Positions 175 to 31,934 are shown, counted from the stretch's first letter. The stretch is 36,879 nt of DNA from Bacteroidales bacterium (GCA_031272415.1 JAISTU010000207.1:1-36879); one strand, 5' to 3'. The notes: generated from the sequence alone by a model not told the origin. A program made the numbers and translations.

Positions 175-189
175 ATTTTTGTTCAATTT

Positions 190-234
190 TTAGAACAAAT
201 TTATCCTAAAATGCAAAAAAAATCTACACTCTAA
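190..234 (+). repeat. Repeat module 'ttagaac-N10-aaaatgcaaaaaaaa-tctacactctaa'
   Basis: Near-identical copies at 9027-9078, 12420-12468, 23145-23198, 26078-26110, 31817-31843 (partial), 10926-10970 (minus orientation) and inside a CDS at 17333-17365. Confidence 0.85.
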
Positions 235-314: not shown

Positions 315-359
315 TAATTTATGCTTATATAAAAAAAATATTTCTAAAATAAGTAAAAA

Positions 360-3595: not shown

Positions 3596-4132
3596 ATGAT
3601 AATCAATCAGTTAATAATAAAAAATATTATTTTAGGGGCTGCATTTTGCTTGATTTCCAATTCTCTTTTATCGCAATCGGATAGCATTGTTGAGCCGATA
3701 ATTGTTGGAGAAACTTCATTGGAGCAACTTTTATCCATTGATAATTTTCGGACAGAATTTGAAATGTATTATTCTCAATATCAATTAGATACGGAACAAT
3801 TGGAAAAAATAACGACTCTTTTTTCAGACTATCAAAATCAACATTTTCATATTGTTGCCATTGTTGGTTCATGGTGCGGAGATACCAAAGAACAATTGCC
3901 GATTTTGTTGAAAATTCTCTCTGCAACTGCCCTAAAAGACGTGGAAATCACTTATATTGCGGTCAATAGGGACAAAAAAGCAGGTCAAAAAGATGTTACC
4001 GAATATGCTGTTGAAAGAATACCTATTTTTTTGTTTTATGCCAATGAACAATTGCTGGGAAAAATAGTGGAAACTCCCCGCCAAAGTATGGAAAAAGATA
4101 TAATTGAAATATTTAGGTCAATGGAGAATTGA
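3596..4132 (+). CDS. Secreted thioredoxin-fold protein with a monothiol CGDT motif
   Basis: The internal ATG at 3596 gives a signal-like N-terminus (MIINQLIIKNIILGAAFCLISNSLLSQ) and removes overlap with the upstream gene. The thioredoxin-like signature VAIVGSWCGDTKEQLP has Thr in place of the second Cys, followed by ...ERIPIFLFY. The last codons and the stop lie inside a repeat element. Confidence 0.65.
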   Translation: MIINQLIIKNIILGAAFCLISNSLLSQSDSIVEPIIVGETSLEQLLSIDNFRTEFEMYYSQYQLDTEQLEKITTLFSDYQNQHFHIVAIVGSWCGDTKEQLPILLKILSATALKDVEITYIAVNRDKKAGQKDVTEYAVERIPIFLFYANEQLLGKIVETPRQSMEKDIIEIFRSMEN

Positions 4133-4369
4133 GAATTGAGAATTATTTTTTTTGCATTTTTGCACCACCTTGTCTGAACTGTGATTTTGAATGATTAACA
4201 TGATTGCTATGATTTCACACAAATCAAAAAAATCATACGAAAATCAAAGTTCAGACAATTTTATAATCATGCTAATCCTGTAAATCTTATGAAAATCGTG
4301 GTTCAGACGAGAAATGTCTAATTTTAGAAATGCAAAAAAAATAAATCTCAAATCTCCATTCTCAATTTC
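4124..4369. repeat. MITE-like composite element bounded by terminal inverted repeats of about 40 nt
   Basis: The left end is gagaattgagaattgagaattattttttttgcatttttgcac (4124-4165). The right end is aaatgcaaaaaaaataaatctcaaatctccattctcaatttc (4328-4369), an imperfect reverse complement. The interior holds a long hairpin, gtctgaac...gttcagac (4172-4256), and a second gttcagac arm at 4301-4308. Confidence 0.75.
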
Positions 4370-4383
4370 CTTTCACCTTTTTT

Positions 4384-4431
4384 GGGCAAGGCATGCCTTG
4401 CCCCTACACAAAAAACGGCAAGGATGCCGTT
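4384..4431. repeat. Palindrome gggcaaggcatgccttgccc plus adjacent hairpin aacggca-aggatgccgtt
   Basis: 4384-4403 is a perfect palindrome and a sister of 238-257. At 4411-4431, aacggca pairs with tgccgtt. Confidence 0.75.
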
Positions 4432-4480
4432 TCTACAATTCTTAAATTTTAATTCTTAATAAAAAATTTTTTTTCATTTT

Positions 4481-4513
4481 TTAATTTTTAATTGAAAAAA
4501 TTGTGTATCTTTG
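4481..4513 (+). promoter_or_regulatory. Promoter cassette ttaatttttaattg-N11-TATCTTTG for the hydrogenase operon
   Basis: Same cassette as 282-314. The -7 box at 4506-4513 is 87 nt upstream of the ATG at 4600. Confidence 0.7.
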
Positions 4514-4599
4514 TAAATGCCTTTGTAAAAAGGGGAATTTATTTGGTAAAAAAATAACAAATTTTAAAAACGAGAATTAAATAAATTATAATAAAAAAC

Positions 4600-8847: not shown

Positions 8848-8880
8848 AATTTTTAACATATAGCAATGGCACACCTTGAA

Positions 8881-9078
8881 TTAGAGTGGAGATTCTTTTG
8901 CATTTTTGCACTACCCTTGTCTGAACTTTGATTTTGAATGATTTTTTTGATTTGTGTGATTATTTTAATCCTGCCAATCTTATAAATCTTATGAAAATCG
9001 TGGTTCAGACAGGAAAGGCACAAAATTTAGAACATTTTTCTCCCAAAATGCAAAAAATCTCTACGCTCTCCACTCTAA
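8881..9078. repeat. MITE-like composite element with terminal inverted repeats
   Basis: The left end ttagagtggagattcttttgcattttt matches the right end aaaatgcaaaaaatctctacgctctccactctaa as an imperfect reverse complement. The interior unit gtctgaactttgattttgaatgatttttttgatttgtgtga...gttcagac spans 8919-9010. Confidence 0.75.
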
Positions 9079-9102
9079 AAAAAACTTCGCACTTTATAAA
9101 TT

Positions 9103-10846: not shown

Positions 10847-10864
10847 AAAATATTGTGTAAAATG

Positions 10865-10897
10865 CAAAGATACACCTTTTTGTCAATTAAAAATTAA
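10865..10897 (-). promoter_or_regulatory. Promoter cassette (reverse complement: ttaatttttaattg-N11-TATCTTTG)
   Basis: caaagata at 10865-10872 and caattaaaaattaa at 10884-10897, immediately upstream of the minus-strand gene starting at 10846. Confidence 0.7.
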
Positions 10898-10913
10898 GAA
10901 CCTTTTTTTAATT

Positions 10914-11151
10914 GAGAATTGAGAATGGATAATTATTTTTTTTGCATTTTCGCACAAAATTGTTCTAAAAATGGTCATTTCCCGTCTGACAGTGCCTTTT
11001 CCTGCACCATATTGCAGACTCGCCCCGCAATCTCTTTGTCTGAACTATGATTTTGAATGATTAACATGATTACTATGATTTCACACAAATCAAAAAAATC
11101 TTACGAAAATCAAAGTTCAGACAATGCAAAAAAAACTCAAATTTTTTCTCC
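10914..11151. repeat. MITE-like composite element
   Basis: The left end is gagaattgagaatggataattattttttttgcattttcgcac (10914-10955). The right end is aatgcaaaaaaaactcaaattttttctcc (11123-11151), an imperfect inverted match. The internal hairpin unit at 11038-11122 is nearly identical to 4172-4256. Confidence 0.75.
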
Positions 11152-11191
11152 TTAACAATCCACAAAATAACAAAAAAATATTTTTTAATTC

Positions 11192-11224
11192 TTCATTTTT
11201 AATTGAGGAATTTGTGTATCTTTG
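11192..11224 (+). promoter_or_regulatory. Orphan promoter cassette (ttcatttttaattg-N11-TATCTTTG)
   Basis: Same cassette as upstream of bona fide genes, but the next convincing start codon is about 380 nt downstream at 11605. Confidence 0.55.
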
Positions 11225-11393
11225 CAAAACGTAAAAAAATATGGAGTAATGGAAAACGAAATCAGACAAAATTTTGGCTACAGCAATAAGGCTGTATTGA
11301 GGAGTAAAAAAGGTGCTTTAAGTGTCGCTCGTTTAGGAGGAGACGCCGAGAAGTGCGTTTTTGCTATGCAATGTGTTGATTATCAAGCATTTA

Positions 11394-11408
11394 CCCCCCC
11401 CCCCCCCC
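11394..11408. repeat. Homopolymeric C15 tract
   Basis: Fifteen consecutive C in an AT-rich context, flanked by tgattatcaa / tgataatcaa words. It lies between the orphan promoter and the methyltransferase ORF. Confidence 0.95.
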
Positions 11409-11604
11409 AACTCACTGATAATCAATAAGTTACGAAGCACAACCTATCCTCTCCTCAAAGGAGGAGAAAAGAAAAATAATCGTCTCAACCACAATATTAA
11501 TAAGGTTAGGAAGATTGACAAGATTTTGTGCTATCAAAATTCTTGGAAATTAAGTAGGATATTGGGGTGTGTATTGTGTGAAATTTTAAATAATAATTGC
11601 AATT

Positions 11605-12349
11605 ATGGGATTGATTTTAAAAATTAGACAATTTCATGTCAGGCAATTGTTTTTGCCTAATTTGTTCAGTGTTTTGGTAAATCCATTTTTCTTGTGTCGT
11701 GTAGGGATGGCAAAGCAAATTGCCCGCTTTGCAAAACAGTTCCCTCAAAATGGACGTATGCTTGATTTTGGTTGCGGGCATAAACCATATCGTTCTTTTT
11801 TTCCAAATGTTTCAGAATATATTGGTGTTGATTTTGAGAATGAAGGACATAGCCACAGCAAGGAAAAAATTGATGTTTCTTATGATGGAAAAACATTGCC
11901 TTTCCCCGATGCCTACTTCGATTGTGCAATTTGTACAGAGGTTTTAGAGCATGTCCCCGACATTGACGGCACTTTGGATTTGTTAAATCATGCTTGCAAA
12001 GACAAAGCATTGATTATTTTTACTGTTCCTTTTATCGGCTGAACACGAAATGCCATTTGATTTCAGACGTTTCACGCTTGTCGGATTAAAAGCCAAACTT
12101 GCAGAACACGGATTTGAAACACTTGAGTATAAGAAAAACGGCAACTCAATATCGCTTTTAACTCAATTATGGATAATGCTTATACATAGATTGTTGTATA
12201 CAAAAAACGTACTTTTAAACTATTTTATCAATTTCATTTTTATATTCCCCTTTACATTGCTTGGCTGTTTACTATCTGTTATTTTTAGACAACGAAAAGA
12301 GATGTATTTCGGAAGTATGATTTTAGCACAAAAAAACCATAAAATTTAA
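11605..12349 (+). pseudogene. Class I SAM-dependent methyltransferase, split by a +1 frameshift near 12030-12040
   Basis: ORF 11605-12042 carries the SAM-binding motif MLDFGCGHKPY and ends ...IIFTVPFIG*. Frame +1 continues as (L)SAEHEMPFDFRRFTLVGLKAKLAEHGFE (ORF 12050-12349), the expected continuation of the same fold. Confidence 0.7.
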
Positions 12350-12419
12350 TTTTTATTTGTCAAAATTTGTTTATCTGATTGTAAGAGCGATGTCATCTCT
12401 TTCAAAAAAATGTCACTTT

Positions 12420-12468
12420 TTAGAATATTTTTATCTCCAAATGCAAAAAAAATCTACACTCTCCACTA
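12420..12468 (+). repeat. Repeat module ttagaat-N-aaatgcaaaaaaaatctacactctccacta
   Basis: Same family as 190-234. It is followed by a degenerate copy of the ggcaa-gcatgc palindrome. Confidence 0.8.
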
Positions 12469-12598
12469 TGTTTGGCAAGCATGCCATTGCTTCTACAGTA
12501 AATTATTTAGGGGGTTATTGAATAAATTTCCCTAAAAATAGCGAAAAAAAAGTTTAAATTCCTAAAAAATGGGGGTATATTAAGCCAAAAAAGTATTG

Positions 12599-12606
12599 TA
12601 TCTTTG
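12599..12606 (+). promoter_or_regulatory. -7 box TATCTTTG (gtattgTATCTTTGcaaaac) for the hmu-type cluster
   Basis: Consensus TAnnTTTG 29 nt upstream of the ATG at 12635. The ttaattttt-aattg block is absent here. Confidence 0.6.
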
Positions 12607-12634
12607 CAAAACAGTTAAATTATTAAAAAAAACT

Positions 12635-14851
12635 ATGAAAATTACATACATTATCACTATTGGATTATTTTTAGGCTGGTGCGGAAGTTTGTCGGCACAA
12701 AATCGGCAAATTTCAGGCATGGTAACGGCTACAGATGCCAAAACGGGCATTCCGTATGCCTCCATTAGCATCAAAGGAACAAATTTTGGGACTGCCGCCG
12801 ACAAAGATGGCAAATACGACCTTTCTTTGCCGGCGGTCGGAAAATATGTATTTTGGGTCAGAGCAATGGGATTTGAGCAACAAGAATGGACAATTGAAGT
12901 CAAAAAAGATACAGTGGTCAATTTTGTATTGCAGGCGGATAGATTGAACATGGAAGAGGTGGTGATTACCGGCACACGAACACCCAAAATGTTGAAAGAT
13001 GTGCCTGTTCCGACACGAATTATTCCGTCAAAAGATATACAAAATGCTGATGTTGTGAATGTTAAAGATATTTTAGAGACCGAACTTTCCGGCATGGAAT
13101 TTACCTCTCATGGTGGCTCTACGAATATCAATATGCAAGGTATGAGCGGAAAATATATTTTGTTTTTGCTTGATGGTGAGCGAATTGCGGGTGAAACGCG
13201 AGACAATGTAGATTATAACCGTTTAGATGCCACTAACATTGAGCGAATTGAAATTGTAAAAGGCTCTGCATCAGCGCTTTATGGCTCAAGTGCTATCGGA
13301 GGGGTGGTCAATATTATTACCAAAGATGCCCAACAGCCGTGGCAAGTGAGCCTTCATTCTCGCTATGGTAGCCATGCTCAACAGCAATATGGAGGCAATA
13401 TCGGCTTTAAAAAAGGAAAATTTAACAGCCTCACTTCGGCAAATTTCAAATATTTTAAAGGATATATGTTGAAAGATGCGGAAGGAATTGATTATTTATT
13501 TGAAAATGAGATAATTACAGATACTGCCAAATATTCTACCGAAGTCAAAGGATACAAAGATTTTTCGGTTCATCAAAAATTTACCTATCAGCCTGTAAAT
13601 CAATTAAAACTGACTTTAAAAGGTGGATTTTATCAGCATGAAGATTTAGGTTTGGCGAGCAACAATAAGCGAAATGATTTTTATTTAGGTGGAAATACCT
13701 CATTAAGAGGCGATTGGCAAATGACAAAAAAGCAAAGTTTGCAGTGGAATTATAATTTTGATATTTACAGCAAATTTGACCGTTTTTTGACCGAAGAGAT
13801 GGCGGGCGTTAAGAGAAACACTTACCAAAACACGCAACACACGGCGAATGTGCTTTTTCATCAATACTTTACGGACAATAATATTTTGACGGTCGGGGCG
13901 GAATTTGCGGGAGATTTTTTGCTCACCTACCAATTCAAAGACACGGGAGTTGAGAAAAGTTATAATTTTGTTGTTTTTGCCCAACATGATATACTGTTGT
14001 GGAAAAAATTCAATTTGGTATATGGCTTGCGGTTGGATTATAATACTGCGTTCAATCCTAACATAAGTCCCAAAGTATCAATGATGTACAAGTTGAAAGA
14101 TTTTACATTTCGTGTTTCTTACGGTGGTGGATTTCGCGCTCCTTCTTTGAAAGAATTATATACCGATTGGGATCATCAGGGCATGTTTCGTTTAGTGGGC
14201 AACAAAAATCTTAAACCCGAAAAAAGCCACAATTGCTCTTTGTCGGCTGAATATACAAGAAATATCTTAAATATTTCATTATTAGGATATTACAACTATA
14301 TCAAAGACCAAATTACAAGCATTTGGAATCAAAAAGAAGATACTGCATTTTATGTCAATCATGGAAAAGCGCAAACAGCGGGAATGGAACTCAATGCAAG
14401 AATTGAAACCGCCTTTGGGCTTTCCGTAAAATACTCATATTCATATACTTACACATATTCATTGGACGACATGGGTGTCAATATCAATTCCACTCGTCCG
14501 CACACCGCCACTCTGCAAGTAGGTTATCGTTTCAAAAAAGGAATTTATGAAATACAGCCGCTCATTCAGGGACGTGTGTTGAGTTCGTTGGAGATGAAAG
14601 GATATTCTGCCGACAGGAATGAGTATTACACCATTACGTACCCTGCTTACACTTTGTGGAAATTTATACTTAATCAACACTTTTTCAAGGCATTATCTTT
14701 ACAATTAGGCATTGAAAATATTTTTGATTACAAGGCAAAACATCAAACTTTCAATTCTTCACTCACGCCGGGGAGAACTTATTTTGCAGGTTTAAATATA
14801 GAAATTGACAAATTATTTCACTTAAAATACAAAAAATATAAAAAACTATGA
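12635..14851 (+). CDS. hmuR: TonB-dependent outer-membrane receptor, haem-receptor-like (HmuR-type)
   Basis: The start at 12635 gives a signal peptide (MKITYIITIGLFLGWCGSLSAQ). There is an N-terminal CarboxypepD_reg-like domain and a plug (EEVVITGTRTPK, ERIEIVKGSASALYGSSAIGGVVNIIT). FRAPSLKELYTDWDHQGMFRLVGNKNLKPE is a FRAP-x10-H...NxNL arrangement. The protein ends with a terminal aromatic-rich barrel strand. Gene context includes a CobN-like gene. Confidence 0.8.
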   Translation: MKITYIITIGLFLGWCGSLSAQNRQISGMVTATDAKTGIPYASISIKGTNFGTAADKDGKYDLSLPAVGKYVFWVRAMGFEQQEWTIEVKKDTVVNFVLQADRLNMEEVVITGTRTPKMLKDVPVPTRIIPSKDIQNADVVNVKDILETELSGMEFTSHGGSTNINMQGMSGKYILFLLDGERIAGETRDNVDYNRLDATNIERIEIVKGSASALYGSSAIGGVVNIITKDAQQPWQVSLHSRYGSHAQQQYGGNIGFKKGKFNSLTSANFKYFKGYMLKDAEGIDYLFENEIITDTAKYSTEVKGYKDFSVHQKFTYQPVNQLKLTLKGGFYQHEDLGLASNNKRNDFYLGGNTSLRGDWQMTKKQSLQWNYNFDIYSKFDRFLTEEMAGVKRNTYQNTQHTANVLFHQYFTDNNILTVGAEFAGDFLLTYQFKDTGVEKSYNFVVFAQHDILLWKKFNLVYGLRLDYNTAFNPNISPKVSMMYKLKDFTFRVSYGGGFRAPSLKELYTDWDHQGMFRLVGNKNLKPEKSHNCSLSAEYTRNILNISLLGYYNYIKDQITSIWNQKEDTAFYVNHGKAQTAGMELNARIETAFGLSVKYSYSYTYTYSLDDMGVNINSTRPHTATLQVGYRFKKGIYEIQPLIQGRVLSSLEMKGYSADRNEYYTITYPAYTLWKFILNQHFFKALSLQLGIENIFDYKAKHQTFNSSLTPGRTYFAGLNIEIDKLFHLKYKKYKKL

Positions 14852-17800
14852 GATTATTAAGAAAAAAAGGCAAAAAAATTATTATTTGTGCATCTATTGC
14901 ACTGTTTATCATTGGAATATGTGCTTTATTTATTCGTTTAAATACGGTAAAAATAGCCTTATTGAATTTTCCGAATTTTCAATATGCAAAAATGTTTAAG
15001 TCCAATACCAATCGATATATTGACTTGAAAAACATTACATTAGAAGATTTTGAAAAGTTAAAAAATTATGATGCTGTTTTGATTTTCGGCATGGGCATTC
15101 GCATGACGGATGAGCATAGAAAAGCATTGGGAGTCCTTAAAAATAAAGGAATTACAATTTATTCTACTGCTGTAACCGACCCTGTTAATCAAATTTCTAC
15201 ATTGGACAGTTTACAAGCGGCAAATGTGTCGGCATATTTGGAAAATGGAAGCCAAAAAAATTATCGTAATCTATTCAATTACATGCGAAAAGAGGTGTTG
15301 AAAAAGCATTTTTTTAATCAGCCTGTCGCAGCGCCGACCGTTGTCAGTTCGGACATATTTTTCCATTTGGATGGTGAAAATGTGTATAATTCCGTGTCTG
15401 AATTTGAAAATTATTACAAAAAAAATGGCTATTACAAGGAAAATGCCCCCAAAATAGCACTCATTTGTGGGATGATGGCACCTTTTGGGTCGGAGAAAGC
15501 CTATTTGGATTCGTTGATTATTGCACTGGAAGAAAAGCAATTAAATGTATATCCTTTTTACAGTTTTTCCAAGCGGTTTGAATTTTTGGAAAGCATTTCG
15601 CCCGATGCAGTGGTTTATTTGCCACACGGACGTCTTTTGATGGGCGAGGGCGACAAAATTACACATTGGTTAAAAAGTCGCAATATTCCACTCTTTTGTC
15701 CTCTTACTGTGCATGTTACGATAGATGAATGGCTCAAAAATAAACATGGAATGTTCGGCGGTTTTTTGAGTCAAAGTATTGTTATGCCTGAAATTGACGG
15801 CGGAATTATGCCCTTTACAGTTTTTGCACAACAAATTGATAATGAGGGACTTTACTCATTTGTTCCCATCTCTCATCGTTTGCAACAATTTGTAAATATT
15901 GTATCCAATTATATAAATTTAAAGCATAAACCAAACAAAGACAAAAAATTAGCGATTTATTATTACAAAGGTGCAGGCAATAATTCTTTGCTTGCGTTTG
16001 GCTTGGATGTTGTGCCTTCTTTGTATAATTTATTACAAATGCTTAAAAATGAGGGCTATACGGTCAAAAATTTGCCTTCTTCTGTGTCGGAATTTAAGGA
16101 TTTGATTTACAGACAAGGACCTGTTTTTAACAGTTATGCGGAGGGAAAAATTAACCAATTTTTGCACTCAAATTATCCCGCTTTTGTTGGACAAGAGGAA
16201 TACAATTTATGGCTTAAAAAGAGGCTTTTACCGCAAGTGGAACAACAATTACAGCAAAAATATGGCACACCGCCGGGGGAATATTTTACGCTCTCTCAAA
16301 ATGGAGAAAAGATGCTTGCTGTTACGCGTATTGAGTTGGGAAACATTGTTTTGTTGCCCCAGCCTGTGCAAGGGACGGGTGATAATTCATTCTCGGCGGT
16401 GCATGGCGACAATCCATTGCCTCCCTATCACTATATTGCTGCTTATTTGTGGGCACAAAATCATTTTCAAGCCGATGCTATGTTGCATTTTGGCACGCAT
16501 GGCTCTTTGGAATTTATACCCGGCAAACAGGTGGCTTTGTCTTCTTACGATTGGAGTGATATTTTGGTCGGTCAAACACCCCATTTTTACTATTACAGTA
16601 TTGCAGACGTGGGCGAGGCAATGATAGCAAAAAGAAGAACTTATGCCACGCTGATTAGCCACCTTAATCCGCCTTTTATAGAGACCCAATTGAATGAGAA
16701 GGTGGAGCATTTACAGCAAAAAATTCGCAATTATTTGTCATCAGATGCAAAAAATAAAGAAAAATCGCTTAATTTACAAATTAAAGCAGAGGTCATAAAA
16801 ATGGGTTTTCATCGAGATTTAAAATTAGATAGTTCTTTAATGCAAATTTATTCAGATGAAGATTTACAGAAAATAGATAATTTTGCAGAGGAGTTGTGCA
16901 GTGAGAAAATTACGGCAGGACAACACATTACAGGCATTGCTTTTGATGAGCGTAAAATACAATCTTCGGTGGTATTGATTTGCAGCGACCCCATTGCATA
17001 CAGTTTGGCACAATTGGACGTGTTGAAAGGAAAAATTACACCACAACAGATTGAAAATCAGCCTTATTTCAATGCAAATTATTATTTACCTGCCCAAAAA
17101 GCAGTCAAAAAAATGTTGGCAAATCCGAACATTGACCCTCTCAAAGTGCTTGTTTCTATAGGAATTAGCCCTTCGGAAATTGAAAAAGCAAAACAAATTA
17201 ACGCTCAAAGCCAGCCTACTGCAAATCCAATGGCGATGATGATGGCAAAACAGCCAACAAAAGGGAATAAAATGACATCTCAATCACCTGCAATGTCACA
17301 TTCTCCCCAAAATATGCCACAAAATACAAAAATTAGAACAAATTTATCCCAAAATGCAAAAAATCATCCGCAAAATATGTCGCAAAATGCACCTTCACAG
17401 TCGGAACAACTTATTAGTCAATCAATTATAACAATAGAAAACACTTTGCAAAAAGTCAATCAATATTATCAAAATTTAAAATTAAGTCCGCAAAATGAAC
17501 TCTCTCAATTGGTCAATGCGTTCAATGGAGGTTACATTTTGCCTTCTTCCGGTGGTGATTTTATCGCCAATCCAAGCACTTTGCCAAGTGGTAGAAATTT
17601 GTATGCAATCAATGCCGAAGCCATGCCGACACCGCAAGCATGGGAAAAAGGCGTTACGTTAGCAAAGGAACTCATTGATAAATACCGCAAAAATCACAGC
17701 AATCAATATCCACAAAAAGTGAGTTTTACGCTCTGGTCGGGCAGTTTTATTGAGAGCGAAGGGGCAACGATTGCACAAATTTTGTACCTTTTGGGGGTAG

Positions 17801-19077
17801 AGCCGGTGCGAGACCAATTTAATCGTGTTTTAGATGTTCGCTTAATCCCTGAAAATGAATTAAATAGACCTCATATAGATGTAGTTGTTCAGACTTCGGG
17901 GCAATTCAGAGATTTGGCGGCTTCACGTTTATTATTGTTACAGAAAGCCATTGATTTAGTGGCAAATACAGATACAAAAGTGGACAATTTTGTTCAAAAA
18001 GGCAATCAAAAAGCCGAAGAGATGCTGTTAAAGAGCGGTTTTTCTCCCAAAGATGCACGACAATTAGCGTCTGTTCGTATTTTTGGCGGTGTAAATGGTA
18101 TGGCAGGCACCGGCATTACGGCGATGGTGGAAAGTGGGGCGCGTTGGGAAAATGAGTCTCAAATTGCAGAAGTTTATCTCAATAATATGGGTGCAATTTA
18201 CAGTGATACAGGCAATTGGGGTGATTTTCAGGGCGGTGTTTTTGCCGCCGCTTTGCAAAACACGGATATAGTTGTGCAACCCAGACAAAGCAATACGTGG
18301 GGAGCGTTGAGTCTTGACCATGTGTATGAATTTATGGGGGGCATAACGTTGGCAGTTCGGAACGTAACAGGCAAAGAACCTGAGGCTTACTTCAATGATT
18401 TGAGAAATCATTACCATGTCCGAATACAGGATTTGAAAACTGCCATAGGGGTGGAAGCACGCACGACCATCTTCAATCCTGCCTATATTAAAGAGCATAT
18501 CAAAAGTGAAAGCGACGCCAATTCTTTTGCAGAAATTATTCGCAATACTTATGGATGGAATGTGATGAAACCCAGCGTAATAGACAACGAATTGTGGGAA
18601 CAAATTTTTGATACGTACATTGACGATAAATACAATCTGAATTTGAAAACGTTTTTTGAGACACAAAATCCTGCTGCTCTGCAAGAAATGACCGCCGTTA
18701 TGTTGGAAACGTACAGAAAAGGCTATTGGAAAACTGCCAATGAAAAAATTGCAAAATTGAGTACTTTACATGCCGATTTGGTTACAAAATATGGTGCAGG
18801 ATGCAGTGGTTTTGTGTGTGATAATGCAAAATTACAACATCTTATTTCTTCTCAATTACCTGATAATCAAAGAGATAGATACAATTCTCAAATTTCGCAA
18901 GCAAGGGAAATACAAACATCTGATAATCAGAACGTCGTGTTAAAAAAAGAAACTTTACAAGACAACTCTTTTACGCGGAAAAGCACTGCATTGTCCACGA
19001 TTTTGGCAATTGTGGGAGGCGTTGCAGTTGTGTTGGTTGTTTTGTTGATTATTGTTAAGAGGAGGAAAAATGACTGA
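14848..19077 (+). CDS. hmuS: CobN/Mg-chelatase-family large protein (HmuS-type), membrane-anchored at both ends
   Basis: 1409 aa, with an ATGA overlap with the receptor gene. CobN-family blocks include HFGTHGSLEFIPGK, LPSGRNLYAINAEAMPT, DVVVQTSGQFRDL and QPRQSNTWGALSLDHVYEFMGG. There is an N-terminal TM helix (IIICASIALFIIGICALFI) and a C-terminal TM helix (ALSTILAIVGGVAVVLVVLLIIV). Confidence 0.85.
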   Translation: MRLLRKKGKKIIICASIALFIIGICALFIRLNTVKIALLNFPNFQYAKMFKSNTNRYIDLKNITLEDFEKLKNYDAVLIFGMGIRMTDEHRKALGVLKNKGITIYSTAVTDPVNQISTLDSLQAANVSAYLENGSQKNYRNLFNYMRKEVLKKHFFNQPVAAPTVVSSDIFFHLDGENVYNSVSEFENYYKKNGYYKENAPKIALICGMMAPFGSEKAYLDSLIIALEEKQLNVYPFYSFSKRFEFLESISPDAVVYLPHGRLLMGEGDKITHWLKSRNIPLFCPLTVHVTIDEWLKNKHGMFGGFLSQSIVMPEIDGGIMPFTVFAQQIDNEGLYSFVPISHRLQQFVNIVSNYINLKHKPNKDKKLAIYYYKGAGNNSLLAFGLDVVPSLYNLLQMLKNEGYTVKNLPSSVSEFKDLIYRQGPVFNSYAEGKINQFLHSNYPAFVGQEEYNLWLKKRLLPQVEQQLQQKYGTPPGEYFTLSQNGEKMLAVTRIELGNIVLLPQPVQGTGDNSFSAVHGDNPLPPYHYIAAYLWAQNHFQADAMLHFGTHGSLEFIPGKQVALSSYDWSDILVGQTPHFYYYSIADVGEAMIAKRRTYATLISHLNPPFIETQLNEKVEHLQQKIRNYLSSDAKNKEKSLNLQIKAEVIKMGFHRDLKLDSSLMQIYSDEDLQKIDNFAEELCSEKITAGQHITGIAFDERKIQSSVVLICSDPIAYSLAQLDVLKGKITPQQIENQPYFNANYYLPAQKAVKKMLANPNIDPLKVLVSIGISPSEIEKAKQINAQSQPTANPMAMMMAKQPTKGNKMTSQSPAMSHSPQNMPQNTKIRTNLSQNAKNHPQNMSQNAPSQSEQLISQSIITIENTLQKVNQYYQNLKLSPQNELSQLVNAFNGGYILPSSGGDFIANPSTLPSGRNLYAINAEAMPTPQAWEKGVTLAKELIDKYRKNHSNQYPQKVSFTLWSGSFIESEGATIAQILYLLGVEPVRDQFNRVLDVRLIPENELNRPHIDVVVQTSGQFRDLAASRLLLLQKAIDLVANTDTKVDNFVQKGNQKAEEMLLKSGFSPKDARQLASVRIFGGVNGMAGTGITAMVESGARWENESQIAEVYLNNMGAIYSDTGNWGDFQGGVFAAALQNTDIVVQPRQSNTWGALSLDHVYEFMGGITLAVRNVTGKEPEAYFNDLRNHYHVRIQDLKTAIGVEARTTIFNPAYIKEHIKSESDANSFAEIIRNTYGWNVMKPSVIDNELWEQIFDTYIDDKYNLNLKTFFETQNPAALQEMTAVMLETYRKGYWKTANEKIAKLSTLHADLVTKYGAGCSGFVCDNAKLQHLISSQLPDNQRDRYNSQISQAREIQTSDNQNVVLKKETLQDNSFTRKSTALSTILAIVGGVAVVLVVLLIIVKRRKND
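17333..17365 (+). repeat. Intergenic-type repeat module embedded in frame in hmuS
   Basis: ttagaacaaatttatcccaaaatgcaaaaaatc matches 190-224 (ttagaacaaatttatcctaaaatgcaaaaaaaatc), differing by one substitution and a shorter A run. Here it is translated as ...IRTNLSQNAKNH... Confidence 0.85.
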
Positions 19078-19762
19078 TATTTTGCTGATTATCACTATTT
19101 TATGCTTTGTAAAGAATCTGTTTACAGCCTCTCTTTTGCCTTCTTTTTGGCAAAAGTTGCTCATTGGCTTGATTTGTTTTGCAGTTGTTTGGTTTTTAGA
19201 ACCTTACGCCATTCAAATCAACAAATTTTATGCAGAAAATGTATTGCTAAAATATGATAATATCTTGAATATCAATCTATTTACAACTGTTGACCTTTTG
19301 CTGACTTTCACTTTTTGCCACTTAATTGTCAAAAAACAGCAATATAAAAAATTGCAATTATATGAAAAAATATTGCTTTTTTTGCCTTTTTTATCTTTTT
19401 TACCGATAGTGTTTTATTGGCAAATACAAACATTTTTTCTGTTTTGGGGTCAATCTTTTCTAAAATTAACCTTTTTATTTTCAGTTTTTATTTTTCTGCT
19501 CATAACAGGAATTTCGAGTGGAATAAGCAAAATCATCACAACAAGAACAATTTTTTTGGAAATTATCGGCATTTTATCATTGTTTTTGTTTGTTTTTTCT
19601 GTCTGTTGCATGGTATTGCATCCGACAAGTGTAATTATCTATAACACAACCAATTACATCAATTTCAGGGAGTTTATTTTTTCATTTCTGACTCTGCTGT
19701 TAGGCTTTGTAGTTGGTTTTTTATCGCAAAAAATTAAAAAATATATAAAAAAATATCAATAA
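19070..19762 (+). CDS. Polytopic integral membrane protein (position of hmuT in hmu loci)
   Basis: The ATG at 19070 is preceded by aggaggaaaa and overlaps the hmuS stop by 8 nt. About seven hydrophobic helices. No recognisable catalytic motif. Confidence 0.6.
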   Translation: MTDILLIITILCFVKNLFTASLLPSFWQKLLIGLICFAVVWFLEPYAIQINKFYAENVLLKYDNILNINLFTTVDLLLTFTFCHLIVKKQQYKKLQLYEKILLFLPFLSFLPIVFYWQIQTFFLFWGQSFLKLTFLFSVFIFLLITGISSGISKIITTRTIFLEIIGILSLFLFVFSVCCMVLHPTSVIIYNTTNYINFREFIFSFLTLLLGFVVGFLSQKIKKYIKKYQ

Positions 19763-20382
19763 TGGAATATATATCAAATGTAATGTTTTGGATTTCAAAT
19801 GGTTTGTTAGTGCCTGTAATTGTCGGGCTGCTGTTTTTCTTTTGTCAATCAATATTGATGATAGGCAGCCTTTACAATCAATATTTACAGCGCAAAAAGC
19901 AGCATAAAATCCTAAAAATCAAATTGTTAAAATTAGACAATAACAATTTATCGGATTTGGAAAAAGAAATTGAGCAAAGTCCTCAAAATGAATGGACTAA
20001 AACCATTTCCCAATTGTACAAAATGCAAAATAGTTTGGCACACAGAGATTTATACATTTCTGAATTTGAAATGAAAGCACAAAAAAGCATCTCAAAAGCC
20101 AAAATATTGGTCAAATTTGGACCCATTTTGGGTTTAATGGGGACGCTCATCCCTATGGGACCTGCATTGGTGGGACTTTCCACAGGAAACATAGAATCGA
20201 TGGCTTACAATATGCAGGTCGCTTTTGCAACTACTGTTTTGGGGCTTTTGACGGGTGCAATCGGCTATATTTTGTTGCAATTTCGGCAAAAATGGGCAAA
20301 TGAAGACCTTACACAACTCGATTTTATTTCCAATCTTATGTCTGAGAATCAAAAAAATACATTATGCGAAGGCGACAAATAA
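19762..20382 (+). CDS. MotA/TolQ/ExbB-family proton-channel protein
   Basis: TAATG overlap with the upstream gene. The conserved channel region is KFGPILGLMGTLIPMGPALVGL followed by a C-terminal TM helix (TTVLGLLTGAIGYILLQF). Confidence 0.75.
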   Translation: MEYISNVMFWISNGLLVPVIVGLLFFFCQSILMIGSLYNQYLQRKKQHKILKIKLLKLDNNNLSDLEKEIEQSPQNEWTKTISQLYKMQNSLAHRDLYISEFEMKAQKSISKAKILVKFGPILGLMGTLIPMGPALVGLSTGNIESMAYNMQVAFATTVLGLLTGAIGYILLQFRQKWANEDLTQLDFISNLMSENQKNTLCEGDK

Positions 20383-20693
20383 TTAAAAATGAGGACAATA
20401 CGGATATTATGGCAACGGTTTCCAATCTTTTTGATGTGGCGATGGTGTTTGCGGTCGCTCTGATGGTGGCTTTGGTAACAAAATTTAAAATGACCGAAAT
20501 TTTCTCGCAAGAAGATTATACAATTGTTAAAAATCCCGGTACCCAACAAATGGAAATTATTACCAAAAAAGGCGAAAAAATTACCAAATATTCTACCGCC
20601 GACCAACAAACTTCCGCCTCTCCAAAAGGCAGAAAAGTCGGTATCGCTTACGAATTAGAAACAGGAGAAATAATTTATGTGCCGGAAAAATAA
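20364..20693 (+). CDS. Small single-TM protein in the ExbD position (DUF2149-like)
   Basis: 19-nt overlap with the MotA/ExbB gene. It has a basic N-terminus, then one TM helix (NLFDVAMVFAVALMVALV), then a soluble tail. Confidence 0.55.
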   Translation: MRRRQIIKNEDNTDIMATVSNLFDVAMVFAVALMVALVTKFKMTEIFSQEDYTIVKNPGTQQMEIITKKGEKITKYSTADQQTSASPKGRKVGIAYELETGEIIYVPEK

Positions 20694-20814: not shown

Positions 20815-21834
20815 ATGACAGATTTTAGGATTTTTCGTATGACAATGGCTGTTGCGTTGATAGCAACGGCGGTCGGTTTTACAGCATGTAAGAAACCGAT
20901 AGTAGTAGACACAGTTAGTTTGGATAAAACCGAACTGATGATGTTTAAAAATGACACAATTACGCTAACGGTGACCATTTTGCCCGACAATGCAGAAGAT
21001 AAGTCGGTCAAATGGAGTAGCAGCAATGCAACAGTTGCGGCGGTAGACCAAAATGGCGTAGTAGTAGCACTCGCAGGCGGTACGGCGGTGATTATGGTAA
21101 CAACAAATGACGGCAATAAATCTGCCTCATGCAACATTACCGTGCCTATCGACAGCGGAACTCTGGCAGGGAGTCCAATTAAATGGATACTCCTCAATGA
21201 AAAAACAATGATTCTCAGGGGAGAAGGTGCAATGAAAGATTACACCAACCTTGACCAATCTAAACCGTGGGATAACCCCAACTCAAAAATTAAGGACATT
21301 ATTGTTGAGGAAGGTGTAACCGCTATCGGGAAGTATGCGTTCTATCGGGCTATGATAGAAACGATTACAGTGCCGACAACCGTAACTTCTATCGGACAGG
21401 GTGCATTTACGGAAGCCTCTGAGTTGAAACAGATTACTTTCGCCAGCGATGTAGGCTTGCAAGACATCAACGACTACGTATTCCAAAGTTGTTGGTCTCT
21501 CAAAACGCTCAAACTGCCTTCAACGCTAAGGGCTCTCCGTACGGCTGCATTTCAGTATTCCGGTTTGGAAACGATTGAAATTCCTCTCCAAGTTACCACA
21601 ATTCAACAGGCTGCTTTTGGTGGCTGTGATTCTTTAAAAGAATTGACCGTCAATTGGGCAAACCCAGTCACATGTGCAATGCAAAATTCAACCGACATTG
21701 GCAATGGTGTTTTCAAAAGTATTTCTACTGCTAAATTAGCAACTATAAAGTTGAATGTTCCGGCGGGTTCAAAGACCAACTATGAGGCGCATGATGTTTG
21801 GAAATATTTCAATATAGTAGAAAAACCAAATTAA
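20815..21834 (+). CDS. Surface lipoprotein with a Big_2 Ig-like domain and BspA-type leucine-rich repeats
   Basis: Lipobox ATAVGFTAC. Big_2-like segment VSLDKTELMMFKNDTITLTVTILPDNAEDKSVKWSSSNATVAAVDQNGVVVALAGGTAVI. LRR_5/BspA-like repeats include VTAIGKYAFYRA, VTSIGQGAFTEA, INDYVFQSC, RTAAFQYS and IQQAAFGGC. Confidence 0.8.
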   Translation: MTDFRIFRMTMAVALIATAVGFTACKKPIVVDTVSLDKTELMMFKNDTITLTVTILPDNAEDKSVKWSSSNATVAAVDQNGVVVALAGGTAVIMVTTNDGNKSASCNITVPIDSGTLAGSPIKWILLNEKTMILRGEGAMKDYTNLDQSKPWDNPNSKIKDIIVEEGVTAIGKYAFYRAMIETITVPTTVTSIGQGAFTEASELKQITFASDVGLQDINDYVFQSCWSLKTLKLPSTLRALRTAAFQYSGLETIEIPLQVTTIQQAAFGGCDSLKELTVNWANPVTCAMQNSTDIGNGVFKSISTAKLATIKLNVPAGSKTNYEAHDVWKYFNIVEKPN

Positions 21835-22925: not shown

Positions 22926-22963
22926 CTTTTTTTACTTTACTTTATTTAATTAATTAACATTTT

Positions 22964-22997
22964 GCAAAGATACACCTTTTCGTCAATTAAAAATTAA
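22964..22997 (-). promoter_or_regulatory. Promoter cassette for asd (reverse complement: ttaatttttaattg-N12-TATCTTTG)
   Basis: caaagata at 22964-22971 and caattaaaaattaa at 22984-22997. Confidence 0.7.
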
Positions 22998-23016
22998 ATT
23001 TTAAAAATCGGCTCAA

Positions 23017-23036
23017 TTAGAGTGTAGAGTGTAGAG
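23017..23036. repeat. ttagagtgtagagtgtagag, the inverted partner of 23180-23198
   Basis: Its reverse complement ctctacactctacactctaa matches tctacactctacactataa at 23180-23198 (18 of 20). Confidence 0.8.
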
Positions 23037-23110
23037 AATTGATTATCAAATGTTTATATCTTATTTTGTAGGGGGGAGACAGGTAGAGGGTACAGGATGA
23101 AAGGTAAAAA

Positions 23111-23198
23111 AATAATTATCCATTCTCAATTCTTTTCTCCAATTTTAGAACGTTTTTATCCCAAAATGCAAAAAAAAAATCTACACTCTACACTATAA
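23111..23198 (+). repeat. Word block (aataattatccattctcaattc) plus ttagaac...aaaatgcaaaaaaaaaatctacactctacactataa module
   Basis: 35 nt at 23143-23177 are identical to 26076-26110. Same family as 190-234. Confidence 0.85.
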
Positions 23199-23208
23199 AA
23201 AAAGGTTT

Positions 23209-23241
23209 TTAATTTTTAATTGAATAATTTGTGTATCTTTG
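23209..23241 (+). promoter_or_regulatory. Promoter cassette ttaatttttaattg-N11-TATCTTTG
   Basis: The -7 box at 23234-23241 is 23 nt upstream of the ATG at 23264. Confidence 0.7.
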
Positions 23242-23263
23242 CAAAAGTTAAGAATGAAAAAAT

Positions 23264-26027: not shown

Positions 26028-26075
26028 AGGGAACTTATGGATTGCTTTTTGCTTAAAATTTGGGTGATTTTCATT

Positions 26076-26110
26076 TTTTAGAACGTTTTTATCCCAAAAT
26101 GCAAAAAAAA
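26076..26110 (+). repeat. Repeat module ttttagaacgtttttatcccaaaatgcaaaaaaaa
   Basis: 35 nt identical to 23143-23177. It sits between convergent stop codons, so it is not tied to a promoter here. Confidence 0.9.
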
Positions 26111-26119
26111 TAGGTAAAT

Positions 26120-28531: not shown

Positions 28532-29359
28532 TTATAAAATATTTTTTAATAATTCTTCTGCTGTCATTTCCATTTTGGAAAATGCAAAAAGTTTTTTACC
28601 TAAGTCTTTTAATGATGCTCCGATATGGTATAAATCATTGTCAATCAATAGAAAACGGTCATGTATATTTGGTTTTTCTTGCATCAAAATTTTAGGATAT
28701 TGTGCATTCTGTTTTTGTAAATCCAATCGCAAAGTGTCTGAAATTTCTTTTGTAAAAATTGTTGCTTTTACCTTGCTTTTTCGCTTGGAAAGTAAAGTTA
28801 AAACACTCATATCCAGGTAATTATCTGTCACTACAATTTCTTTTTTTGCTGTTTCAATCAAATCGGAAACAAATTTATAAGCATCAAAAATTTGTCCGTT
28901 GTAAAAAACACCTTCTTTTTCTTTTGGAGGCAATTCGGTACGAACTATAAAATCTATCTGTTTTTCCGTTTGTGTAACACGATATTCCAAACGCTCAAAA
29001 CGTTGATTGATAGCATAGCCTTTTAAAATATAATCTCTTAACGTTTTTGTAGCCCAAATACGAAATTCAGTACCACGTTGAGATTTTACTCGGTAACCAA
29101 CAGAAATTATTACATCCAAATTATAAAAAGCGACAGGTCTATCAATATTTGTAATATGCAAAATTTGCATATTGCTTTTTGCGTCAAGTTCTTTTTCCTT
29201 AAAAACATTCTTTATATGCTTGGATATAACCGATTGGTCACGCTCAAAGAGCATAACCATTTGTGCCTGCGTGAGCCAAACAGTATCGTTTTCCACTCTG
29301 ACATCCAACTGAACACTATCGTTAGGATTATACAATATAATTTCGTTTTTTGTATTCAT
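28532..29359 (-). CDS. RhuM-family protein (virulence-associated RhuM-like; function unknown)
   Basis: The N-terminus IILYNPNDSVQLDVRVENDTVWLTQAQMVMLF...ISKHIKNVFKEKEL, then FYNLDVIISVGYRVKSQRGTEFRIWATKTLRDYILKGYAIN, and the C-terminal HDRFLLIDNDLYHIGASLKDLGKKLFAFSKM match my recollection of the RhuM family. Confidence 0.7.
   Translation of the reverse strand: MNTKNEIILYNPNDSVQLDVRVENDTVWLTQAQMVMLFERDQSVISKHIKNVFKEKELDAKSNMQILHITNIDRPVAFYNLDVIISVGYRVKSQRGTEFRIWATKTLRDYILKGYAINQRFERLEYRVTQTEKQIDFIVRTELPPKEKEGVFYNGQIFDAYKFVSDLIETAKKEIVVTDNYLDMSVLTLLSKRKSKVKATIFTKEISDTLRLDLQKQNAQYPKILMQEKPNIHDRFLLIDNDLYHIGASLKDLGKKLFAFSKMEMTAEELLKNIL
29153..29173. repeat. Perfect palindrome aatatgcaaa-a-tttgcatatt inside the RhuM-family gene
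   Basis: 10-nt arms around one central base. It shares a 19-nt core with the palindrome at 29425-29449. Confidence 0.9.
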
Positions 29360-29691
29360 TTTGTTCTATTTTGTGATATGTTTTCAACTAAAAATGTTAC
29401 GTCCTGTATTTCCCCATTTGTTATAGTATATGCAAAATTTGCATATACTGAATTTCGTTGCGAATTTTGAACTGTCAAGAAATCCTTGACAGTTGATTTT
29501 TGTAATTCGCCTTCTTTGATAATATTTTTGACATGCAAACTAATATTTTGTTTTGTTGTAGCAAACAAAACGGTCATTTGTGCCTGCGTGAGCCAAACAG
29601 TATCGTTTTCAATCATCACTTCCAACTGAACACTATCGTTGGGTTTATATAATATTATTTCATTTTTCTTGTCGGCAATTGGGGTAGTCAT
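29356..29691 (-). pseudogene. Truncated RhuM-family paralogue (N-terminal about 80 aa only)
   Basis: IILYKPNDSVQLEVMIENDTVWLTQAQMTVLF...ISLHVKNIIKEGELQKSTVKDFLTVQ, after which similarity is lost. 36 nt (29575-29610) and 20 nt (29621-29640) are identical to 29258-29293 and 29304-29323. The stop overlaps the start of the full-length copy (ATGA). Confidence 0.6.
29425..29449. repeat. Perfect palindrome agtatatgcaaa-a-tttgcatatact
   Basis: 12-nt arms around one central base. It is located where the truncated RhuM paralogue loses family similarity. Confidence 0.9.
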
Positions 29692-29694
29692 ATT

Positions 29695-30441
29695 TTAGTC
29701 ATTTTTCAGAGACTCTTCTGCAATCTTTTTTAGCACTGCATTGATTTTCATGCGTTTTTCTTTACTGAAACTGCACAACTGCTCTTGAAATTCGGCAAGA
29801 ATATCATTTTCGAGATGCTTATTTCCCACAACTTTATATTTCAAATAATACAATTTCCCTTGCTGTTCTTTGTAATTGACTTCTTCGTCCGAAAGAGCAG
29901 TGAGTGCTTTTGGGTCCCAGTTCACCATTCGTACTCCTCTGTAAATCAGCCCTTTATCGTATAAATCACAAAAGACTTTCAGCACTGATTTTGAGCGAAT
30001 TTCATCCATTGTGAATGCAGTCCTGTCCCAGTCGCAGGAGCAGCCCAATTTTTTAAGTTGTTCAAGGATAATTCCGCCGTGTTTGTGTGTCCACTCCCAA
30101 GCATGTTTAAGAAACTCTTCGCGGGAGAGGTCGCTTTTTTTGACGCCTTCTTGTGCCAATTTATTAACTACTTTGGCTTCGGTGGCAATTGAGGCATGGT
30201 CAGTTCCCGGCACCCAGCAGGCATTTTTTCCTTGCATTCTTGCCCTGCGTACAAGCACGTCCTGAATGGTATTGTTGAGCATGTGTCCCATGTGCAAAAC
30301 ACCGGTAACATTGGGAGGCGGAATAACAACAGTATAAGGCTTTTGTGCATTAGGCTGAGAATGAAAAAGTTTATTTTCAAGCCAATATTTATACCATTTT
30401 TCCTCGATTTTATGCGGTTCGTATTTTGATGATATTTCCAT
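29695..30441 (-). pseudogene. valS: Valyl-tRNA synthetase, 5' fragment only (about 205 of about 870 codons) with an unrelated 40-aa tail
   Basis: The N-terminus is classic ValRS: [55 protein letters not shown] ... [19 protein letters not shown]...[10 protein letters not shown]. The expected TTRPET and KMSKS regions are absent. The ORF ends at 29695 and RhuM-family ORFs follow directly. Confidence 0.8.
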
Positions 30442-31746: not shown

Positions 31747-31816
31747 TATATTACGAATTTTAAATACAATTTAATTATTATGTTATAACGTTTATTGAGA
31801 TATTTTATTGTATATT

Positions 31817-31843
31817 GAATGCAAAAAAAATCTACATTTACAT
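31817..31843 (+). repeat. Partial repeat module gaatgcaaaaaaaatctacatttacat
   Basis: Same aaatgcaaaaaaaatctaca core as 211-228. Confidence 0.7.
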
Positions 31844-31853
31844 TTTTTTAATT

Positions 31854-31886
31854 TTATTTTTTAATTGAAGGAAAAGTGTATCTTTG
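31854..31886 (+). promoter_or_regulatory. Promoter cassette variant (ttattttttaattg-N11-TATCTTTG)
   Basis: The -7 box at 31879-31886 is 49 nt upstream of the ATG at 31935. Confidence 0.65.
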
Positions 31887-31934
31887 TATTTTTAAAATAT
31901 TTTTGTAGTATTAATTAAATAAACTGTAAATTTC

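What the first reader, a model, noticed from the sequence alone, without database searches (positions are those of the whole stretch)
17206..17410. An intergenic repeat module is inserted in frame in the CobN-like hmuS gene and is translated as a Q/N/P/M-rich segment
Bases 17333-17365 (ttagaacaaatttatcccaaaatgcaaaaaatc) match the intergenic module at 190-224 with one substitution and a shorter A run. Flanking DNA (ccccaaaatatgccacaaaatac / ccgcaaaatatgtcgcaaaatgcacc) resembles the 'gcaaaatgc' ends of the same family. The reading frame is not broken. The region encodes ...QSQPTANPMAMMMAKQPTKGNKMTSQSPAMSHSPQNMPQNTKIRTNLSQNAKNHPQNMSQNAPSQSEQ..., a low-complexity stretch between well-conserved CobN blocks. 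This parallels the in-frame Rickettsia palindromic elements. It would be an example of a mobile repeat creating new peptide sequence in an otherwise conserved enzyme. The Met/His/Gln-rich composition could even be functional, for instance in metal or haem handling, but that is speculation.
Basis: partly seen in the sequence, partly recalled or inferred. Interest (0 to 1): 0.72.

Follow-up and report, generated by a model that had tools for sequence, protein, structure and literature searches.

The report
Repeat fragment inside HmuS's disordered loop
A 40-base unit of this bacterium's own intergenic repeat family sits in frame inside a haem-iron enzyme gene, but the low-complexity stretch around it is a known disordered loop shared by the whole enzyme family, so the event is a small tolerated addition and not a new protein segment.

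Summary
The sequence observation is real. Bases 17333-17363 match the intergenic module at 190-220 at 30 of 31 positions, with none expected by chance. Against the copy at 9020-9059 the match runs 40 bases (17326-17365, 36/40), which is one complete core unit of a family with six intergenic copies in the window. A profile built from the intergenic copies alone scores the gene copy at 26.7 bits (E 1.4e-7). The best hit in 1.4 Mb of other Bacteroidota DNA is 12.8 bits. The hmuS reading frame is intact.

The 60-70-residue low-complexity stretch was not created by the repeat. It is the methionine-rich insertion (MRI) of HmuS haem dechelatases, found in every HmuS and disordered in the cryo-EM structure. 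The segment here is 74 residues against a median of 82 in homologues, and its QP..MAMMMA start is conserved.

Only 13 codons (TKIRTNLSQNAKNH) come from the repeat. An imperfect 23-base direct repeat (19/23) abuts the unit on both sides and adds about 8 more codons, giving 63 bases or 21 codons. This looks like one insertion with target duplication in the most length-variable part of a disordered loop.

No close relative exists in the databases, so presence versus absence could not be tested. Interest is modest.

The parts
14848..19077 (+). hmuS, a CobN-like haem dechelatase of 1409 aa, intact, with hydrophobic N- and C-terminal segments
   Evidence: ORF list and translation. Pfam CobN-Mg_chel 2-1089/1090, E 2.4e-289. 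Best PDB match is HmuS haem dechelatase 9d26, 1424 bits.
17200..17421 (+). Variable segment equivalent to the HmuS methionine-rich insertion (residues 785-858, 74 aa, 8 Met)
   Evidence: Alignment with homologues. MRI described in PMC12583661. Predicted pLDDT 35-58 against 88-95 in the flanking helices.
17303..17325 (+). Left direct repeat CTCCCCAAAATATGCCACAAAAT (encodes PQNMPQN); probably the original target sequence
   Evidence: 19/23 identity with 17366-17388. It is the only such pair among 15,753 pairs of 23-mers in the segment.
17326..17365 (+). 40-nt core unit of the intergenic repeat family, in frame; it spans the 14 codons TKIRTNLSQNAKNH, the last of them only in part
   Evidence: Both ends coincide with the points where the intergenic copies stop resembling each other.
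17366..17388 (+). Right direct repeat ATCCGCAAAATATGTCGCAAAAT (encodes PQNMSQN)
183..224 (+). Intergenic copy of the core unit; closest to the gene copy over the central 31 nt (30/31)
9020..9059 (+). Intergenic copy, 40 nt, 36/40 identical to the gene copy over its whole length
10934..10975 (-). Intergenic copy
12413..12454 (+). Intergenic copy, upstream of hmuR
23138..23181 (+). Intergenic copy
26071..26112 (+). Intergenic copy
12596..14851 (+). hmuR-like TonB-dependent receptor, immediately upstream of hmuS (the true start is probably downstream of the listed TTG)
   Evidence: Pfam Plug, TonB_dep_Rec_b-barrel and CarbopepD_reg_2.
19052..20693 (+). Downstream operon genes in the hmuT, hmuU (MotA/ExbB) and hmuV (DUF2149) positions
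   Evidence: Pfam. The nearest homologue's locus L001 has the same order.

Best explanation
The low-complexity stretch is the methionine-rich insertion (MRI) of an HmuS haem dechelatase. The MRI is an intrinsically disordered, length-variable loop in domain IV that every HmuS has and that CobN and ChlH lack.

In this lineage, one complete 40-nt core unit of a genome-specific mosaic intergenic repeat family was copied into the most length-variable part of that loop. About 23 nt of the target were duplicated at the same time. The net gain is 63 nt, or 21 codons, so the frame is kept. The frame used has no stop codon. The addition is tolerated because the loop is disordered and already varies from 23 to 142 residues among homologues.

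The most likely mechanism is a single replication or repair template switch to an ectopic repeat copy and back, with re-annealing about 23 nt upstream. Short homologies (ACA/CAAAAT) at the junctions would have helped.

Status of each step:
- Shown: identity of the loop as the MRI; membership of the 40-nt unit in the family; the repeat-unit-repeat layout.
- Inferred: direction of copying (family to gene); a single event; template switching as the mechanism; functional neutrality.
For: MRI identity:
- The PDB best hit is HmuS 9d26, and the alignment breaks exactly at this segment.
- The paper reports an MRI in all 680 HmuS sequences, mean 82 aa, minimum 22, with no cryo-EM density.
- Homologues are the same overall length and all carry the segment. 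This one is shorter than 66% of them.
- Predicted pLDDT is 35-58 across it.

Repeat origin:
- 30/31 and 36/40 matches to intergenic copies.
- A profile built from intergenic copies only gives 26.7 bits, E 1.4e-7, against a maximum of 12.8 bits in 1.4 Mb of control DNA.
- The ends of the gene copy coincide with the unit boundaries of the family.

Insertion layout:
- The 23-nt direct repeats abut the unit exactly: 17303-17325 | 17326-17365 | 17366-17388.
- 19/23 identity occurs at only one offset among 15,753 23-mer pairs in the segment, and in 0 of 131,829 random in-phase pairs across the gene.
- No intergenic copy has such flanks.

Position: the unit lies just after the conserved MPxxxK motif, where homologues differ by 0 to about 90 residues.
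Against: - No close relative is available. The nearest HmuS is 63% identical and the nearest Asd 67%, so no empty site has been seen.
- The direct repeats differ at 4 of 23 positions. The event is therefore old, or the repeat partly reflects the (P/S)QN(M/A/T) periodicity of the region.
- Codon shuffles of the region reach 19/23 somewhere in 3 of 300 trials.
- A 23-nt target duplication is longer than known transposases make, so the mechanism is inferred from the layout alone.
- The whole MRI here is a compositional outlier. Q+N is 0.30, the highest of 116; charged residues are 0.095, the lowest of 116. The 63-nt event does not explain this.
Confidence: 0.75

Rival explanations
1. Classical transposition of a small non-autonomous element (MITE-like or RPE-like) into hmuS, later trimmed to its core.
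For: The family is multicopy and occurs in both orientations in intergenic DNA. The gene copy is flanked by direct repeats, as a transposon insertion would be. In-frame intragenic MITEs are well documented (PMC10969869).
Against: The unit has no terminal inverted repeats and no significant fold on the + strand; the - strand gives z -2.7 and -1.7 in the two copies folded, from G-U-dependent hairpins not conserved across copies. A 23-nt duplication is far longer than usual target-site duplications (own knowledge: 2-14 bp). None of the six intergenic copies has flanking duplications. Only one coding-region copy occurs in 37 kb. No transposase is linked to it in the window.
Confidence: 0.12
2. The repeat seeded the whole Q/N-rich half of the loop. 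After insertion, its TCCCAAAATGCA part was amplified by slippage into the PQNM/PQNT/SQNA units, so about 35 residues would derive from the repeat.
For: The units CCCCAAAATATG, CCACAAAATACA, CCGCAAAATATG and TCGCAAAATGCA resemble the unit's TCCCAAAATGCA. The loop has the highest Q+N fraction of 116 homologues.
Against: The flanks have no significant similarity to the family (E 4; E >= 0.1). Tandem Repeats Finder finds no array there. QNMPQNTK aligns with the conserved GEMPDFVK motif of homologues, so the left unit looks ancestral. CAA-AAT is simply the AT-rich codon pair for Gln-Asn. Acidic residues are also missing from the conserved first half of the loop, which has no repeat similarity.
Confidence: 0.06
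3. The 40-nt unit is a functional DNA or RNA site, such as a regulator binding site or part of a promoter-upstream cassette, and its copy inside hmuS is kept for regulation of the hmu operon.
For: Four of the six intergenic copies lie 50-150 nt upstream of a conserved Bacteroidota-type promoter cassette in the same orientation, and one of them is upstream of hmuR.
Against: The distances to promoters vary. Two copies lie between convergent genes. There is no excess of promoter-like or terminator-like sites around the gene copy, no Rfam match, and no significant fold on the + strand; the - strand folds somewhat better than shuffles (z -2.7, -1.7) but not consistently across copies.
Confidence: 0.04
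4. Chance resemblance in A-rich low-complexity coding DNA, or an assembly artefact.
For: The region is A-rich and repetitive. The window is a single metagenome-type contig with no second copy in the databases.
Against: There were 0 matches in 100 shuffles, E 1.4e-7, and a control maximum of 12.8 bits in 1.4 Mb. Both sides of the unit are hmuS sequence that is collinear with homologues, and the frame is intact. A chimeric join would not produce that.
Confidence: 0.03

Closest known systems
Methionine-rich insertion (MRI) of HmuS haem dechelatase (Bacteroides thetaiotaomicron; PDB 9D26/9P4S; PMC12583661)
   Same: Same position in domain IV, between the same conserved blocks. It starts with the same Met cluster (PMAMMMA against MMAMMMA), is low in complexity, is predicted to be disordered, has 8 Met in 74 residues, and sits in the same operon context.
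   Different: It is shorter than in B. theta (about 60-74 against 119 residues). It has almost no charged residues and is the richest in Q+N of 116 homologues. It contains a 40-nt unit of an intergenic repeat.
Rickettsia palindromic elements and other in-frame intragenic small repeats (ERIC, BOX; review PMC10969869)
   Same: A multicopy, mostly intergenic repeat is found in frame inside a conserved enzyme gene and adds peptide sequence at a structurally permissive place.
   Different: The unit is only 40 nt and not palindromic. Only one coding-region copy is seen. It is flanked by a 23-nt duplication. It lies inside a loop that was already disordered and variable, so it does not create a new surface insertion.
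Modular mosaic intergenic repeats such as pneumococcal BOX elements or enterobacterial BIMEs (own knowledge)
   Same: The intergenic regions of the window are built from short modules that recur in different combinations and orientations.
   Different: There is no sequence similarity to any described family: no Rfam match, and the pattern is absent from 185,579 species genomes and from the JGI metagenomes.
Templated insertions made by microhomology-mediated template switching (FoSTeS/MMBIR-type events; own knowledge, papers listed but not read)
   Same: A short stretch copied from elsewhere in the genome, a flanking duplication of the target, and 2-3 nt of shared sequence at a junction.
   Different: These events are described mainly in eukaryotes and in experimental systems. 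Here the mechanism is inferred from one old event whose duplicates have since diverged (4/23).

Membership tests
HmuS haem dechelatase (class I chelatase superfamily) | Full-length CobN/Mg-chelatase domain | tested here: met
   Pfam PF02514, profile positions 2-1089 of 1090, E 2.4e-289.
HmuS haem dechelatase (class I chelatase superfamily) | Closer to solved HmuS than to CobN or ChlH | tested here: met
   9d26 HmuS scores 1424 bits, against 368 bits for ChlH and 320 for CobN.
HmuS haem dechelatase (class I chelatase superfamily) | Methionine-rich insertion in domain IV | tested here: met
   A 74-residue segment with 8 Met at the equivalent position, with a conserved QP..MAMMMA start; definition from PMC12583661.
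HmuS haem dechelatase (class I chelatase superfamily) | Catalytic His (His-538 in B. theta, motif HFGTHGS) and loop residues Phe-502 and His-506 | tested here: met
   The HMMER alignment to 9d26 shows lhfgtHgslef and dnsFsavHg conserved. The residue roles are taken from PMC12583661.
HmuS haem dechelatase (class I chelatase superfamily) | Complete six-gene hmuYRSTUV operon | tested here: inconclusive
   A TonB-dependent receptor lies upstream, and a MotA/ExbB protein and a DUF2149 protein lie downstream. The gene in the hmuT position has no Pfam hit. No hmuY was found; the upstream ORF 11605-12042 is a methyltransferase fragment.
In-frame mobile repeat insertion of the RPE/MITE type | Multicopy element in the same genome | tested here: met
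   Six intergenic copies in 37 kb.
In-frame mobile repeat insertion of the RPE/MITE type | Terminal inverted repeats or a palindromic structure | tested here: not met
   Not met for the gene copy and the + strand: no fold beyond shuffles (z 0.66, -0.66, -0.49, 0.10). The - strand of two intergenic copies folds somewhat better (z -2.67 and -1.67) via G-U-dependent hairpins that do not hold across the other copies. No inverted termini.
In-frame mobile repeat insertion of the RPE/MITE type | Short target-site duplication at each copy | tested here: not met
   The intergenic copies have no flanking duplication. The gene copy has an atypically long, imperfect one of 23 nt.
In-frame mobile repeat insertion of the RPE/MITE type | Several independent in-frame insertions in unrelated genes | tested here: not met
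   There is only one significant coding-region hit in the window. The rest of the genome is not available.
In-frame mobile repeat insertion of the RPE/MITE type | Presence/absence polymorphism among close relatives (an empty site) | not testable with these tools
   No relative is closer than 63% (HmuS) or 67% (Asd) identity. The protein is not on record elsewhere.

The most novel reading that the evidence does not exclude
The 40-nt unit may be a discrete cargo placed by a ruler-type integration that duplicates about 23 nt (two helical turns) of target. This layout resembles off-target spacer integration by Cas1-Cas2 more than transposition. If so, the genome's mosaic repeats, or at least this copy, were moved by an uncharacterised integrase-like activity, and hmuS records one such event in a permissive loop.
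Probability: 0.05. Interest if true: 0.6.

Novelty: new member of a known kind. Interest (0 to 1): 0.3.

Why it matters
This is a clean small example of how a disordered, length-variable loop in an otherwise conserved enzyme can take up stray genomic DNA without loss of the gene. It also shows that the HmuS methionine-rich insertion tolerates radical changes in composition, here almost no charged residues and 30% Gln+Asn. That bears on the proposed haem-feeding role of the loop. It does not reveal a new kind of element or a new way of making protein sequence.

Tried and rejected
- **Close relatives for an empty-site comparison.** A peptide scan of 185,579 species genomes with HmuS found nothing. 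A protein search found nothing above 63% identity. An exact look-up of the protein found no record. The Asd scan gave at best 67% identity.
- **The repeat family elsewhere.** Two patterns in genome contigs and one in metagenome contigs gave zero hits or a single chance hit, L003. The nearest homologue's contigs L001 and L002 have no copy.
- **RNA explanations.** Rfam finds only a tRNA. The + strand has no stable or conserved fold; the - strand of two copies folds somewhat better than shuffles (z -2.7, -1.7) but the hairpins depend on G-U pairs and are not kept in other copies.
- **Tandem-repeat origin of the PQN units.** Tandem Repeats Finder finds nothing in 17100-17500.
- **Internal promoter or terminator near the unit.** Counts are at the chance level.
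- **Weak profile hit at 35241-35283 inside ORF 34852-35883 (E 0.032).** On inspection it is not a copy.
- **CRISPR-like array in the window.** None found.

Full report
**1. The observation**

Bases 17333-17365 differ from 190-224 by one C/T substitution and by an A run of 6 instead of 8.

The match is not chance. The 31-nt pattern, allowing up to 3 mismatches, has five matches in the window and none in 100 dinucleotide-preserving shuffles. I built a profile from the six intergenic copies only, leaving the gene copy out. It finds the gene copy at 26.7 bits, E 1.4e-7, and this is the only significant hit inside a coding region. The same profile run on 1.40 Mb from 83 other loci, almost all Bacteroidota (fetched for other purposes), gives nothing above 12.8 bits.

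Bases 17326-17365 align without gaps to 9020-9059 at 36/40. These 40 nt start and end where the intergenic copies stop resembling one another, so the gene holds one complete core unit of 40-44 nt and not a random fragment.

**2. The gene**

ORF 14848-19077 is open for 1409 codons. It matches Pfam CobN-Mg_chel end to end. Its best solved relative is the HmuS haem dechelatase of Bacteroides thetaiotaomicron, 9d26, at 1424 bits; ChlH scores 368 and CobN 320. The HFGTHGS motif containing the catalytic His is conserved (residue roles from PMC12583661).

A TonB-dependent receptor gene lies upstream. A MotA/ExbB gene and a DUF2149 gene lie downstream, in the same order as the nearest homologue's locus. 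The gene therefore looks functional.

**3. The low-complexity stretch**

The 120 best homologues are 1214-1469 residues long, and the 115 full-length ones are no shorter than this protein on the whole. All of them carry a variable segment at this position.

Between two conserved anchor columns the segment is 74 residues here. Across the 116 full-length sequences, this one included, the median is 82 and the range 23-142, and 66% are longer than this one. The first half aligns with conserved motifs of the family: QPTANPMAMMMAK...SP...QNMPQNTK against QPKMNRMMAMMME...HP...GEMPDFVK.

The HmuS structure paper names this feature the methionine-rich insertion. It covers residues 780-898 in B. theta and has 21 Met. 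It gives no cryo-EM density and is present in all 680 HmuS sequences examined, with a mean of 82 residues and a minimum of 22. CobN and ChlH lack it. The authors suggest it may feed haem to the head/neck site (PMC12583661).

An AlphaFold2 model of residues 601-1000 with 39 homologues agrees. pLDDT is 35-58 across the segment and 88-95 in the flanking helices. The repeat-encoded peptide (model residues 229-240) falls in blocks of pLDDT 46-50. Low confidence is expected for any low-complexity stretch, so this is a weak test.

**4. What is specific to this lineage**

Two things are.

First, the composition of the loop is an outlier. Q+N is 0.30, the highest of 116 (next highest 0.154, median 0.07). 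Charged residues are 0.095, the lowest of 116 (median 0.31). Met content is ordinary at 0.108.

Second, the 40-nt repeat unit is present. The 23 nt immediately before it (17303-17325) and the 23 nt immediately after it (17366-17388) match each other at 19/23. They encode PQNMPQN and PQNMSQN. Among all 15,753 pairs of non-overlapping 23-mers in the segment, only this offset reaches 19/23. None of 131,829 random in-phase pairs across the gene does. Codon shuffles of the region reach 19/23 somewhere in 3 of 300 trials.

The two boundaries were defined independently, the unit by BLAST to an intergenic copy and the repeats by the best 23-mer pair. They abut without gap or overlap. Unit plus one repeat is 63 nt, or 21 codons. 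None of the six intergenic copies has such flanks.

**5. Most likely history**

One event copied a core unit from an intergenic copy into the loop and duplicated about 23 nt of target.

- The unit lies just after the MPxxxK motif, where homologues differ by 0 to about 90 residues.
- By my own reading of the sequence, two of the unit's three + strand reading frames are open, and the frame used gives TKIRTNLSQNAKNH.
- The repeats have since diverged at 4/23, and the unit differs from its best full-length match at 4/40. The event is therefore not recent.

A 23-nt duplication is too long for known transposases (own knowledge). The unit has no inverted termini and no significant fold on its + strand; the - strand folds slightly better than shuffles but not consistently across copies. 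I therefore favour a replication or repair template switch, with a return about 23 nt upstream, over transposition. The junctions share ACA/CAAAAT.

This mechanistic step is inference from one locus, and I give it roughly 0.4. That the 40 nt derive from the family I put at about 0.85. That the stretch is the MRI I put at about 0.95.

**6. What could not be done**

No genome or contig closer than 63% (HmuS) or 67% (Asd) identity exists in the collections. The repeat pattern is absent from the species genomes and the JGI metagenomes. An empty site, other gene copies and the family's total copy number therefore remain untested.

**7. Verdict**

The large feature is already known as the HmuS methionine-rich insertion. 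The small feature is a new instance of a known phenomenon, an intragenic in-frame copy of an intergenic repeat (review PMC10969869), with an unusually long flanking duplication. Interest is modest.

Noticed in passing
window 120-330, 4100-4520, 8880-9080, 10850-11230, 12400-12620, 22950-23250, 31800-31900, 36640-36710: Nearly every intergenic region is a mosaic of short recurring modules. These include GAGAATT heptamer runs, the 40-nt core unit, ATCTACACTCT(A/C)CACT, and GGGCAAAGCATGCTTTGCCCCTACA hairpins. There is also a palindromic element of about 90 nt, TTGTCTGAAC...GTTCAGACAA (4170-4259 and 11036-11125 are 97% identical). No Rfam family or other genome matches them.
   Followed up: partly
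window 282-321, 4478-4517, 10858-10897 (-), 11189-11228, 22960-23000 (-), 23208-23246, 31859-31890, 36006-36030: A strongly conserved promoter cassette, TTTTTAATTTTTAATTG-N-GTGTATCTTTGCAAA, precedes many genes. It contains the Bacteroidota-type TAnnTTTG motif. The conservation extends well beyond the usual -33/-7 elements. Four of the six intergenic core units lie 50-150 nt upstream of it in the same orientation.
   Followed up: partly
window 17200-17421: Apart from the repeat, the whole methionine-rich insertion of this HmuS has lost its charged residues (0.095, lowest of 116 homologues) and is 30% Gln+Asn (highest of 116). The conserved HP motif reads SP.
   Followed up: partly
window 28532-30441 (-): A 248-aa ORF (29695-30441) matches only the N-terminal half of a class I aminoacyl-tRNA synthetase (Pfam tRNA-synt_1, positions 1-209 of 414). 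It is followed by two small ORFs (29356-29691 and 28532-29359, the latter of the RhuM family) that share a 93-nt direct repeat at 88% identity (29258-29350 / 29575-29667). This may be a synthetase gene interrupted or truncated by an inserted RhuM-type cassette.
   Followed up: no
window 11398-11410: A run of 13 C in the intergenic region upstream of a truncated methyltransferase-like ORF (11605-12042). It could be a slippage-prone tract or a sequencing or assembly problem.
   Followed up: no
window 11605-12596: No hmuY-like gene precedes hmuR. The upstream ORF is a 145-aa methyltransferase-domain fragment. The hmu cluster here seems to be hmuRSTUV only, followed by a BspA-type leucine-rich-repeat/Big_2 protein gene (20815-21834).
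   Followed up: partly
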